Positions 1 to 3,000 of a stretch of DNA of 64,000 nucleotides are shown one piece after another. The position numbers were made by a program. The stretch lies in the NCBI GenBank assembly GCA_965285935.1, contig OZ260667.1, forward strand, positions 15,810,001-15,874,000, read 5' to 3'. Origin of the DNA: Ophelia neglecta. Taxonomy: Eukaryota. The first letter of the stretch is position 1. The number at the start of each line of letters is the position of its first letter.

Positions 1-3000
1 TTACGTCTTTCTCTGTGGTATTTCCTTTCTACCATTTGCATTAAACGATTAAAAATAACAATTTACGATTTCCTGGAAGCGCCATAATCTCAAAATGATC
101 AATCATGGACCTTAAATGACAGTAGATGACACGTTTCAGCCGGTAATGTTACAGGCTATTTGATTGGCTTAGCGATGATATTACATTTTTGTCGCTTGCT
201 CGCTAGTCGATATTTCGTCGACACTAGTTTCCGGAAAGTATATAGCAGCTGACAGTAGACTTGTTATCATGCAATCTGATAATCAAGTATTCTATCATCA
301 CCATTTTACTGATGTGCACAGTATCTAATAACAGAATTAAAGGCAAGTTTAATTCAGATATTATTTGTTTTATCTGTAGACAGTTGTAATGAGTCCGATT
401 TCACTCGGAAATGTTTGTTTTGGAGTATTCCATTGGCACTAGAGACCCTTGTGACCTGGTGGCCAGTAGGCCAGTGCATAGGGACTGTAAGCTGATAAGC
501 TGCTTTCTATGTACTGGCTTGTACCAGTGTACATATACTGCATATCTATATCTATGTACCTGTGGCCAAGGAGGGGGGGGGGAGTACGGGGGATGTGGGA
601 AGGGAGTGGGAGACTCCACATTTATGGGTTATTCTCATGCCCACATTACCACATGTTACATAGGTAGTCAGTCATTTTTCCAATCTTCTAACGACCCACC
701 TTTTCAGAATGAGTATTTTAAAAGCTATGTGTGTTGTCGTCTGGTGTAACTAAAATGCACAAATGTCCCAAACCCACTGGATAATTACCCAAACCAAGCA
801 GAAATAGTTGTCTTTGAATAACTTGCTGAGCGCTGGGTGTAACAATTAGTACCAAAAAATGAACTAACTTGTTCGCCCATTCTCAATCAATCAATCAATC
901 AATCAATCAAATAATCTTTATTGTCATCTGACATGAAGTACAATTAAACATAACGTGGTAACAGTCAGGGTAACAACCTGGTAGCCGTAAGTGCTCAGCA
1001 ATACTTTTGATTAATATTTCTGTGCAACAACCTTCACTCAGATGTGAGACACTACATACCATAATACTGTTAGTATAATACTGTTAGTATTGGCTATATT
1101 ATATATGTTGCCTGCAATACGTTTGATTTGCAGTGTTTACGTTTGATCGCAGCCGTGACACCTGCACATCACTCGCCCTCTAGTGGCGATTGCCCCGGAC
1201 ACCACCAGAGGGCGTGTGATGTGCAGGTGTCATGGCCGCGATCAAACGTAAACACCGGAGATCAGGTAAGATTCATTTTTTTGCTACTTAATGGTCCGAT
1301 TGCTCAGCAAGTTATTCCAAAACAACTGTAACACCAATCCTGATGCATTTCGCCCCAAAACCTTGCTATTTCAGCTCGGTTTAGGTAATTATCCAGTGGG
1401 TTTGAGACAGTTGCGCATTTTAGATACACCCTGTTGTCATCAGTATCGACCTCTGTTCTAATAATGTCCTTACCATAATAAACTTTCGAAGTCAAATATA
1501 TTTAATATCCAGAATTTCAAAAATATTATTATTAAACAGATTAAATTTTACACAAGTTTTTACTATCCTATGTTTTATTGTATTTATGTATAAATTGTTT
1601 TACATTCTGTAAAGAAAAAATATATTTTGTGTCCAAGTAAACATATAGCTTATGATAGTATTTGGGCCCCTAAATATGGCTGTTAGTTTTAATATCTCTG
1701 CACAGTCCATTTAAGATGATTCTGTGACTGTTAAAATGCAGAGCAATAAAATCTCATTCACTTCCTAGATATATCAATTTGATCCCATTCGGTCATACAA
1801 GTCAAAGGCCAGGCTCTGAGTTTGACTCAATGATTGTTTTATCAATTGTAGTATATACATGTAATTAACCCATCTTATGCCTGTAAAAATGTAATGTCAT
1901 GCATATATCTGTGTAGCTGATGCAGATATGTATGCTGTATTAGGGACCAGTCAGATAGAATCGTAGGATAGGGGGGGGGGGGGAGGAGGGGGGCAGTATG
2001 GAGGGGGGTAGATTGGGCTGATAAAACAAGGTGTTGGGCTCGGAGAGGGGCCTTTAAACTTAACTATGGGCTATGGGTAAGAGGGGGAGGGAGCTGCTTC
2101 CCACCACCTATTCCAGCAGTTGCATCCACTTCAACATCAGTTACAATCTCCAACAAATACTTCCTCCAGCATTTGCATTTTCCGGAAGGAATTACTTTGT
2201 AGACCCAGCATTGGGGTCTTCTAGGATATTGCTTCCTTCAGGCACTGCATCCTTCTGGGCTCTTAAGAATCATTTTCTTTAGGAGTCATTTTCTCCAGGA
2301 ATCATTTTCCTTCAGGGATCAGTTACTTCTAGGATCACTTTCTCAAGGAATCACTTCCTCATATACTTCCATTTTCAAGAAGTGAGTCCTCCAGAAAGTG
2401 TAGTCTCTGGTTATCGGTTTGAAAGAAGGTGCCATTTTGTTGGTTTATTAAAGATACCTTCAATTGTTAAGAAGGAAAAGGTTAGGGGGGAGGGCAATGA
2501 TATATGACTTAATAGAATTTCACCATGCATTCTCTGATGGGGAGTCATCTTTTGAAATATAAAAATATGAGAAACACTGAATTTTATTTTCATGACCTAT
2601 ATGAGGTGTTTTCAAATACTGTAGATTATAAAGCTTAAACATTCACCTCAATTTGAGTAAGGATTTTTTCATTATTAATCACCTGGAAATATGGGTGGAG
2701 GGTTAGGATGGGAGTTCATAGAACTTCAAAACTTCAAAAATATCCCTCACAATTATATCAATGTTCTCAATGTAAAAATGTATACAGCATCAAAGGAACC
2801 ATGCTTAAATGTGTAACTTTAGCAAATTTTTCATAATAAACTTTCAAATATCCATGGCTCCCTGCCCATAGCTATGAAAACAAAGTTCTTTCTTGGCTAG
2901 AATGGTAAAAGTTTTTTTTTGTACATAAAGAGGTGATGCTTTGGATTTACAGTGGGGTAGAGCTTTTCTTTAGCTCTTAAATTAAAAAATTAATCAGACC

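What the first reader, a model, noticed from the sequence alone, without database searches (positions are those of the whole stretch)
1133..1265. Near-perfect palindrome with two back-to-back CTCF-like motifs, framed by splice sites
Seen: 54-bp arms (50/54 complementary) around a 15-nt loop, GC- and CpG-rich in AT-rich surroundings. Each arm carries a close match to the CTCF core (CCACYAGAGGGCG) pointing outward. The unit begins at an acceptor (TTTGATTTGCAG, 1133) and a donor (CAG|GTAAG) follows 10 nt after the right arm, defining a possible 132-nt non-coding exon (1134-1265) that is almost entirely hairpin. It could be a divergent CTCF boundary, a structured 5' UTR exon of SLC12A8, a small-RNA precursor, or a palindromic mobile element that spreads CTCF sites.
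Basis: partly seen in the sequence, partly recalled or inferred. Interest (0 to 1): 0.7.

Follow-up and report, generated by a model that had tools for sequence, protein, structure and literature searches.

The report
Decayed foldback transposon with CTCF-like motifs
The GC-rich palindrome is real, but it is only the centre of a roughly 690-base hairpin-shaped mobile DNA element lying upstream of an invertebrate SLC12A8 gene; whether its two CTCF-like motifs are ever bound is unknown.

Summary
It is in fact larger: 63-nt arms at 1124-1186 and 1202-1264, 56/63 complementary.

The palindrome is the core of a bigger inverted repeat.
- The right arm runs unbroken from 1202 to 1430.
- The left arm is 743-877 plus 1124-1186, split by a 246-bp block at 878-1123.
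- A 10-bp direct repeat, 9/10 identical, sits one base outside each end. Random placements reach this in 0.18% of cases.
- The terminal 8-mer recurs at mirrored sub-terminal places.

This is the anatomy of a non-coding foldback or long-TIR DNA transposon, now decayed.

The two exact matches to a recalled CTCF core are the only ones in the 64 kb. They are mirror images because the element is a palindrome.

The "splice sites" lie inside the element's arms. The acceptor is weak and the donor occurs at chance frequency.

The host is a spiralian invertebrate, neither vertebrate nor human. The gene is indeed SLC12A8-like.

Copy number, CTCF binding and transcription could not be checked, because no eukaryotic DNA collection was available. 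The result is an ordinary kind of element with one intriguing, untested feature.

The parts
732..741 (+). Left copy of the flanking 10-bp direct repeat (putative target-site duplication), one base outside the inverted repeat
   Evidence: TGTTGTCGTC here against TGTTGTCATC at 1432-1441, 9/10 identical. The one difference is CG against CA. Random placements in the window reach at least 9/10 in 0.18% of 62,891 trials.
743..877 (.). Outer part of the left arm
   Evidence: 743-807 pairs with 1366-1430 (65 nt, 89%). 806-857 pairs with 1276-1327 (73%). blastn pairs 806-877 with 1327-1257 at 75.7%. Global alignment. CpG o/e 0.39.
878..1123 (.). 246-bp block that interrupts the left arm and has no counterpart in the right arm; probably a later insertion
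   Evidence: Alignment gap. It starts with a (TCAA)n run at 883-914 (D3) and holds a 14-bp tandem duplication at 1061-1090. Right-arm bases 1257-1264 pair both with 870-877 and with 1124-1131. This is a tentative 8-bp duplication: each copy is 6/8 to the right-arm version and the copies are 4/8 to each other. No tRNA-like part. No other copy in the window.
1124..1186 (.).
   Evidence: CpG o/e 0.93.
1187..1201 (.). 15-nt loop at the centre of symmetry of the whole element
1202..1264 (.). Inner right arm; CTCF-like core on the plus strand at 1202-1214
   Evidence: CpG o/e 0.98.
1265..1430 (.). Outer part of the right arm, continuous with the inner arm; holds 40 nt (1328-1367) that the left arm lacks
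   Evidence: CpG o/e 0.60.
1432..1441 (+). Right copy of the flanking 10-bp direct repeat
836..843 (+). Internal exact copy of the terminal 8-mer found at 743-750. Mirror copies lie on the minus strand at 1423-1430 (terminal) and 1328-1335 (internal), with a further one at 1155-1162.
   Evidence: 5 hits with at most 1 mismatch in 0.69 kb, against 38 in the whole window (0.59 per kb). The spacing mirrors: 93 nt on the left and 95 nt on the right.
1122..1133 (+).
   Evidence: 6 of 10 pyrimidines before CAG, so it fails the at-least-7/10 filter. The A of the AG (1132) faces a G in the other arm, in the contexts GCAGT against CCGGT.
1263..1270 (+).
   Evidence: One of 8 AG|GTRAG sites on the plus strand and 14 on both strands. 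This is about the chance number.

Best explanation
The palindrome is the inner core of one decayed, non-coding foldback-type (very long terminal inverted repeat) DNA transposon. The element spans about 743-1430. It lies about 3.4 kb upstream of the first coding exon of an SLC12A8-like gene in a spiralian invertebrate.

Shown:
- two arms of about 230 nt around a 15-nt loop;
- a 10-bp direct repeat just outside both ends;
- the terminal 8-mer repeated at mirrored sub-terminal positions;
- no coding capacity;
- decay since insertion: 11% difference between the arms, 5 of 7 changes being transitions and 3 of 7 at CpG, a 40-nt indel, and a 246-bp block inside the left arm.

Inferred:
- It arrived by cut-and-paste, using a transposase supplied in trans that binds the terminal and sub-terminal motifs.
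- The staggered cut was filled in to give the 9-10 bp duplication. That length points to the Mutator/Foldback group (recalled criterion).
- It is no longer mobile.

The two CTCF-like cores are one motif seen twice, because the element is its own reverse complement. Their back-to-back arrangement is a by-product of that symmetry. Nothing here shows that they are bound, that the hairpin is transcribed, or that it is an exon.
For: - Inner palindrome.
- Outer arms and continuity of the right arm from 1202 to 1430.
- The whole of 743-1430 folds as DNA at -160.6 kcal/mol, against a mean of -70.2 for 20 shuffles (z = -19.4). The outer arms pair with each other.
- Flanking direct repeat 9/10, reached by 0.18% of 62,891 random placements.
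- Terminal 8-mer: 5 hits in 0.69 kb against 0.59 per kb in the window, at mirrored spacing.
- The ORF across the core (1074-1331) has no Pfam match and no word-sharing homologue. Its only hits are 4 weak matches to unrelated tandem-repeat proteins.
- Arm differences are dominated by transitions and CpG loss, as expected for neutral decay in a methylated genome with CpG o/e 0.34.
Against: - Only one copy was seen. Nothing else in the 64 kb resembles it, and no eukaryotic genome could be searched, so repetitiveness, the defining trait of a transposon, is untested.
- The direct repeat sits one base away from each end of the inverted repeat, not flush with it.
- The direct repeat's significance (about 0.002) comes from a test designed after seeing it.
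- The superfamily call rests on duplication length alone, recalled and not looked up. No transposase relative is at hand.
- The core keeps CpG o/e near 1.0 while the outer arms have 0.39-0.60. A purely neutral relic does not predict this, unless the core simply began much richer in CpG.
Confidence: 0.7

Rival explanations
1. Exapted regulatory element. Whatever its origin, the core is now a working pair of CTCF sites, acting as a divergent insulator or a promoter-proximal element of SLC12A8, and is kept unmethylated by binding. This does not exclude a transposon origin.
For: - The only two exact matches to the CTCF core in 64 kb are here; 0.00 expected.
- The one arm difference that falls inside the 13-nt core (1182) is at a degenerate position, so both copies still match.
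- CpG o/e is 0.93-1.25 in the core and loop, against 0.39-0.60 in the outer arms and 0.34 in the window.
- A CpG-rich patch, possibly a promoter, lies at 76-300.
- CTCF orthologues are reported in molluscs and annelids (passages of PMC10658182).
Against: - No binding, accessibility or conservation data exist for this locus.
- 3 of the 7 arm differences are CpG-to-CpA changes inside the core arms (1132, 1151, 1155), so the core has been methylated in the germ line at least in part.
- One change in 13 core positions is what chance predicts (7 x 13/63 = 1.4), so there is no sign of selection on the motif.
- The two cores face each other 5' to 5' across only 15 nt. From recalled CTCF-DNA structures, the C-terminal zinc fingers of two molecules would compete for that space (inference).
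- Dimorphilus sites are mostly single motifs.
- Whether this host has CTCF is unknown.
Confidence: 0.15
2. Not a mobile element, but a local inverted duplication made in place, for example by template switching or fold-back repair of a break. In that case it is single-copy.
For: Only one copy is seen in the window. No homologous transposase or family is known to me.
Against: A flanking 10-bp direct repeat and mirrored copies of the terminal 8-mer are what transposition leaves. Fold-back repair does not predict them.
Confidence: 0.1
3. A hairpin-RNA locus. If transcribed, the perfect stem is diced into small RNAs (endo-siRNA or a transposon-derived miRNA). This is compatible with a transposon origin.
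For: - A very stable stem: -106.3 kcal/mol, z = -15.7.
- Sub-threshold matches to perfect-hairpin miRNA models: mir-3179 at 51.3 and 48.7 bits, MIR7510 at 40.6, mir-2011 at 37.5, mir-4866 at 33.9, mir-1420 at 31.1.
Against: - All scores are far below the gathering scores of 70-100. No family reaches threshold in the window.
- Matches occur on both strands and rest on pairing, which any palindrome gives.
- A 63-bp stem is far longer than a usual animal pre-miRNA (recalled).
- No expression data.
Confidence: 0.08
4. A 132-nt non-coding 5' UTR exon of SLC12A8 (1134-1265).
For: A consensus donor AG|GTAAG at 1264-1270 and an AG at 1132-1133. The first coding exon lies downstream on the same strand, with its ATG at 4872.
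Against: - The acceptor tract has 6 of 10 pyrimidines and fails a filter that 686 sites in the window pass.
- The donor is one of 14 such sites, the chance number.
- Both sites are ordinary positions of the transposon arms.
- An exon that is almost wholly a -106 kcal/mol hairpin would block ribosome scanning (recalled: hairpins beyond about -50 kcal/mol do).
- A CCAAT box sits about 40 nt before the ATG, which hints at a promoter next to the coding exon.
Confidence: 0.03

Closest known systems
Foldback elements and long-TIR MITEs of the Mutator/Foldback group (Drosophila FB, sea-urchin TU-type foldback elements); named from memory, not looked up here
   Same: Almost the whole element is two long inverted arms around a short loop. 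It does not code. It has a 9-10 bp flanking duplication, and a terminal motif repeated sub-terminally.
   Different: There are no arrays of tandem sub-repeats in the arms such as Drosophila FB has (one search finds none between 743 and 1430 apart from the 14-bp duplication inside the inserted block). No autonomous partner or transposase is known. Copy number is unknown.
Transposon-borne CTCF sites of mammals (rodent SINE B2 and similar lineage-specific SINE expansions); recalled, papers not read here
   Same: A mobile element carries a strong match to the CTCF core, and could seed sites wherever it lands.
   Different: Those are retroposons with one oriented motif and measured CTCF occupancy. 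This is a DNA-transposon palindrome with two mirrored motifs 15 nt apart, in a spiralian, with no occupancy data and only one known copy.
Promoter-proximal CTCF motifs in the annelid Dimorphilus gyrociliatus (PMC7854359, passages read)
   Same: A vertebrate-type CTCF motif in a spiralian genome, within a few kb of a gene start.
   Different: Those are mostly single motifs inside ATAC peaks at transcription start sites, and no transposon origin is described. Here a mirrored pair lies inside a transposon about 3.6 kb from the first coding ATG.
Palindrome-derived miRNA hairpins (Rfam mir-3179 and other perfect-hairpin families)
   Same: A near-perfect long hairpin. The models align end to end on both strands.
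   Different: 51 bits against a gathering score of 90. The similarity is mainly in pairing. No evidence of transcription or processing.

Membership tests
Non-autonomous DNA transposon (MITE / foldback type) | Terminal inverted repeats | tested here: met
   The arms 743-877 plus 1124-1186 pair with 1202-1430. Segment identities are 89%, 73-76% and 89%.
Non-autonomous DNA transposon (MITE / foldback type) | Target-site duplication flanking the ends | tested here: met
   10-bp direct repeat, 9/10 identical, at 732-741 and 1432-1441, one base outside each end. Empirical frequency 0.18%. The test was designed after the repeat was seen.
Non-autonomous DNA transposon (MITE / foldback type) | No coding capacity; small size | tested here: met
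   688 bp. The only ORF of at least 70 aa (1074-1331) has no Pfam match and no credible homologue.
Non-autonomous DNA transposon (MITE / foldback type) | Many copies in the host genome, with empty sites | not testable with these tools
   No eukaryotic DNA collection was available. There is one copy in the 64 kb. An exact 22-nt scan of prokaryote genomes found 0, as expected.
Mutator / Foldback superfamily | 9-11 bp target-site duplication (criterion recalled) | tested here: met
   10 bp.
Mutator / Foldback superfamily | Related autonomous element with a MuDR-type transposase and matching ends | not testable with these tools
   No transposase is seen in the window and no repeat library was available.
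Drosophila-type Foldback | Arms built of tandem sub-repeats | tested here: not met
   Tandem Repeats Finder reports no array in the arms. There are only dispersed copies of the terminal 8-mer.
CTCF binding site | Match to the core motif | tested here: met
   Two exact matches to a recalled 13-nt IUPAC core, 0.00 expected. The JASPAR matrix was not available, so no FIMO score was computed.
CTCF binding site | Host encodes CTCF; the site is occupied and accessible | not testable with these tools
   The window holds no CTCF gene and the species is unidentified. The literature reports CTCF in annelids and molluscs and its loss in flatworms (PMC10658182, passages).
Known RNA family (Rfam), including miRNA precursors | Score at or above the family's gathering threshold | tested here: not met
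   0 matches at gathering thresholds in the window. The best sub-threshold match is 51.3 bits against 90.
Internal exon | Acceptor with a pyrimidine tract, plus a donor | tested here: inconclusive
   The donor matches the consensus but occurs at chance frequency. The acceptor fails the at-least-7/10 pyrimidine filter. The filter is home-made and no MaxEnt-type score was used. Transcript evidence cannot be obtained with these tools.
Unmethylated CpG island | CpG observed/expected near 1 over a few hundred bases | tested here: inconclusive
   CpG o/e is 0.98 over 1051-1325, one of 19 CpG-dense patches in the window. The patch is only about 140 bp of true CpG-rich sequence, and 3 CpG losses are visible between the arms.

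The most novel reading that the evidence does not exclude
The element belongs to a family of foldback DNA transposons that has scattered ready-made, back-to-back pairs of CTCF sites through a spiralian genome. At least some copies, possibly this one next to the SLC12A8 promoter region, would be bound and act as boundaries or promoter elements. This would be a DNA-transposon counterpart, outside vertebrates, of the SINE-driven CTCF-site expansions of mammals. The palindrome would deliver both orientations in a single insertion.
Probability: 0.1. Interest if true: 0.7.

Novelty: new member of a known kind. Interest (0 to 1): 0.3.

Why it matters
As it stands, this is one old transposon relic upstream of a transporter gene, which is ordinary.

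It would matter if the family proves abundant and its motif is bound. How CTCF sites arise and spread outside vertebrates is essentially unstudied. A review of spiralian functional genomics calls the knowledge gaps on 3D genome architecture "very pronounced" (PMC10658182). A palindromic transposon that plants two divergent sites at once would be a neat way to create boundary-type sites.

The case is also a caution for annotation. Consensus-looking splice sites and factor motifs can all sit inside one repeat.

Tried and rejected
**Rfam.** At gathering thresholds over the whole window there was nothing. In E-value mode over 900-1500 and 1100-1300 there were only sub-threshold perfect-hairpin miRNA models on both strands. 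I judged these generic matches that any palindrome would give.

**Looking for other copies.**
- blastn of 600-1700 and of 1-5000 against the window found none beyond the element's own arms.
- An exact scan of the prokaryote genome collection with a 22-nt arm stretch found 0. This was a long shot for host contamination.
- The ORF that runs across the core (1074-1331) was used as a handle on predicted proteins. The word-indexed search found no candidate. The exhaustive representative search gave 4 hits with E between 2e-7 and 6e-5. On reading them, they are unrelated tandem-repeat or low-complexity proteins whose scores add up over 4-8 repeats. I rejected them.

**Other scans.** The tRNA scan, run to test a SINE origin of the 246-bp block, found 0 in the window. 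The bacterial promoter and terminator scan of 1-1500 has no bearing on a eukaryote.

**Literature.** Five searches combined CTCF with MITE, palindromic, foldback, inverted repeat, spiralian or miniature inverted-repeat.
- No paper among those listed links a MITE or foldback element to CTCF motifs in an invertebrate.
- The amphioxus paper (PMC10013865, passages) mentions MITEs and CTCF motifs separately.
- Most listed papers were seen only as search listings, and supplements were not opened.

**Rejected idea.** I considered that the inner palindrome is a separate small MITE nested in another element. The right arm runs without a break from the inner to the outer part, so I rejected it.

**Not done.** No FIMO with the JASPAR matrix, because no matrix was available.
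Full report
**1. The observation**

- Arms 1133-1186 and 1202-1255 are 54 nt with four mismatches (1151, 1155, 1173, 1182). The loop is 15 nt.
- Pairing continues outward to 1124/1264, giving 63-nt arms at 56/63.
- Folded as RNA, 1124-1264 gives -106.3 kcal/mol against -43.4 ± 4.0 for 200 shuffles (z = -15.7), and none of the 200 does as well.
- Among the 10 inverted repeats of at least 25 nt with arms within 400 nt in the whole window, the next best is 38 nt at 74%.
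- The unit has GC 0.56 and CpG o/e 0.99. The window has GC 0.37 and CpG o/e 0.34.
- A 13-letter IUPAC form of the CTCF core, written from memory, matches exactly twice in 64 kb on both strands: 1174-1186 (-) and 1202-1214 (+). The 3' ends point outward, and 0.00 matches are expected from shuffles. One mismatch adds a single further site at 37037.

**2. The host and the neighbourhood**

The window has no N. I searched single-exon reading frames only.
- *CUX/CASP gene, minus strand, about 23.6-37 kb.* It carries CUT, homeodomain and CASP_C domains. Its 374-aa exon finds its best full-length matches in a brachiopod (56% identity, 95% coverage), a nemertean (52%) and molluscs (about 50%). There is no vertebrate among the 120 rows listed.
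- *SLC12 gene, plus strand, about 4.8-10.5 kb.* An exon of it matches proteins named solute carrier family 12 member 8. The best are annelids and nemerteans at 75-80% identity.

It is neither a vertebrate nor human. The species is not identified and I did not try to identify it.

The first coding exon has its ATG at 4872, with a CCAAT box about 40 nt upstream. A CpG-rich patch lies at 76-300 (o/e 1.19).

**3. What the palindrome is part of**

Reading the flanks showed that sequence around 765-840 is the reverse complement of sequence around 1300-1410. The tools confirm it.
- 743-807 pairs with 1366-1430 (65 nt, 89%).
- 806-857 pairs with 1276-1327 (73%).
- blastn extends the middle segment to 806-877 against 1327-1257.
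- A global alignment of the left side with the reverse complement of the right side shows the whole picture.

The right arm is continuous from 1202 to 1430 (229 nt). The left arm is 743-877 followed, after a 246-bp block (878-1123) with no counterpart, by 1124-1186. The right arm also has 40 nt (1328-1367) that the left lacks. As single-stranded DNA the whole 743-1430 folds at -160.6 kcal/mol against -70.2 for 20 shuffles (z = -19.4), with outer arm paired to outer arm.

One base outside each end of the inverted repeat lies a 10-bp direct repeat. It reads TGTTGTCGTC at 732-741 and TGTTGTCATC at 1432-1441. The single difference is CG against CA. I placed a dummy element of the same length at 62,891 other positions and allowed the same slack. 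At least 9/10 was reached in 0.18% of placements. I designed this test after seeing the repeat, so the figure is indicative only.

The terminal 8-mer (743-750) recurs exactly at 836-843. With one mismatch it recurs on the opposite strand at 1423-1430 and 1328-1335, that is at mirrored distances of 93 and 95 nt from the ends, and once more at 1155-1162. That is five hits in 0.69 kb, where the window average is 0.59 per kb.

The element does not code. Its one ORF of at least 70 aa has no Pfam match and no credible relative.

**4. Reading**

Taken together, these features describe a non-autonomous foldback-type DNA transposon:
- long inverted arms that make up nearly the whole unit;
- a short loop;
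- a flanking duplication;
- repeated terminal motifs;
- no coding capacity.

A 9-10 bp duplication points to the Mutator/Foldback group. That criterion is recalled, not looked up, and I could test nothing else for the superfamily.

The element is old.
- The inner arms differ at 7 of 63 positions. Five are transitions and three are CpG-to-CpA changes.
- There is a 40-nt indel.
- There is a 246-bp interruption that begins with a (TCAA)n run and contains a 14-bp tandem duplication.

Right-arm bases 1257-1264 pair both with 870-877 and with 1124-1131. A secondary insertion with an 8-bp duplication would leave this. The two copies agree at only 4 of 8 positions, so I call it tentative.

**5. The CTCF-like motifs**

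Because the element is a palindrome, one motif near its centre necessarily appears twice, back to back. The pair is therefore one observation, not two.
- *Rarity.* A 13-letter pattern of this degeneracy is rare: none elsewhere in 64 kb and none in shuffles. Its presence in a 229-nt arm is therefore not trivial. The motif was, however, picked out after the fact.
- *No sign of constraint.* One of the seven arm differences falls in the core, at a degenerate position. About 1.4 would be expected by chance.
- *The unexplained point.* The core and loop keep CpG o/e near 1.0 while the outer arms have 0.39-0.60. The three CpG losses in the inner arms show that the core was not fully protected from methylation-driven decay. 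A core that simply started very CpG-rich would look the same.
[quoted passage not shown] CTCF orthologues are reported in molluscs and annelids but not flatworms (PMC10658182, passages).
- *Spacing.* The two cores face each other 5' to 5' across 15 nt. From recalled CTCF-DNA structures I infer that two molecules could not both engage fully.

**6. Splice sites, exon, small RNA**

Both "splice sites" are ordinary positions within the arms.
- The AG at 1132-1133 exists only in the left arm, where the right arm has a CpG (GCAGT against CCGGT).
- Its upstream tract has 6 of 10 pyrimidines. It fails a lenient filter (at least 7 of 10) that 336 plus-strand and 350 minus-strand sites in the window pass.
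- AG|GTRAG occurs 8 times on the plus strand and 6 on the minus strand, where about 7.8 per strand are expected.
- An exon that is almost entirely a -106 kcal/mol hairpin would be a poor 5' UTR (recalled knowledge on scanning).

Rfam has nothing at threshold. The sub-threshold hits are perfect-hairpin miRNA models that align on both strands, mainly through pairing.

**7. What stayed unchecked**

The following are all untested:
- copy number in the host, family consensus, empty sites and superfamily;
- CTCF occupancy, accessibility and methylation;
- transcription and small RNAs.

The ways I tried to reach other copies found nothing: window self-comparison, an exact scan of prokaryote genomes, and the ORF across the core as a protein handle. 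Five literature searches listed no paper tying MITE or foldback elements to CTCF motifs in invertebrates. Most listed papers were seen as listings only, and no supplements were opened.

**8. Verdict**

The thing is a new member of a known kind, a decayed foldback or long-TIR DNA transposon. It has one feature worth a look in the host genome: a mirrored pair of strong CTCF-like cores in a CpG-preserved centre.

Noticed in passing
window 1-400 (densest at 76-300): A CpG-undepleted patch (o/e 1.0-1.2 at only 34-39% GC), with a CCAAT box on the minus strand and a TTTCCGGAAA palindrome. It may be an unmethylated promoter, either of SLC12A8 or of a gene left of the window. The transposon lies about 450 bp downstream of it.
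   Followed up: partly
window 41734-44427: Three adjoining minisatellite arrays with periods of 37/111/152, 45/373 and 50 nt. There are up to 16.5 copies, and identity reaches 94% in the 50-nt array. They give long spurious ORFs on the minus strand.
   Followed up: no
window 14924-16339 (-): A TLC-domain (TRAM/LAG1/CLN8) gene lies between SLC12A8 and CUX/CASP. A (CT)n run at 17042-17147 and CpG-dense patches at 17226-18000 may mark its promoter.
   Followed up: no
window 23678-37053 (-): A compact CUX/CASP locus: three CUT domains and the homeodomain within about 5 kb, with CASP-specific exons downstream. The CUX exons are the GC-richest part of the window, at 0.43-0.48.
   Followed up: partly
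window 569-604, 1965-2016, 2479-2494: G-runs of 10-14 nt in similar purine-rich contexts recur on both sides of the transposon (D2 and D4). A 16-nt tandem array lies at 2267-2353. Their meaning is unknown.
   Followed up: no
window 53176-53525 and 62626-63325: The most CpG-dense patches of the window, with 21 and 36 CpG. The first overlaps an arginine-rich 121-aa ORF with no Pfam match. They could be young insertions or promoters.
   Followed up: no
window 60972-61013: A short CpG-rich palindrome with overlapping arms, containing GCGATCGC (I10), inside a CpG-dense patch at 60851-61150.
   Followed up: no
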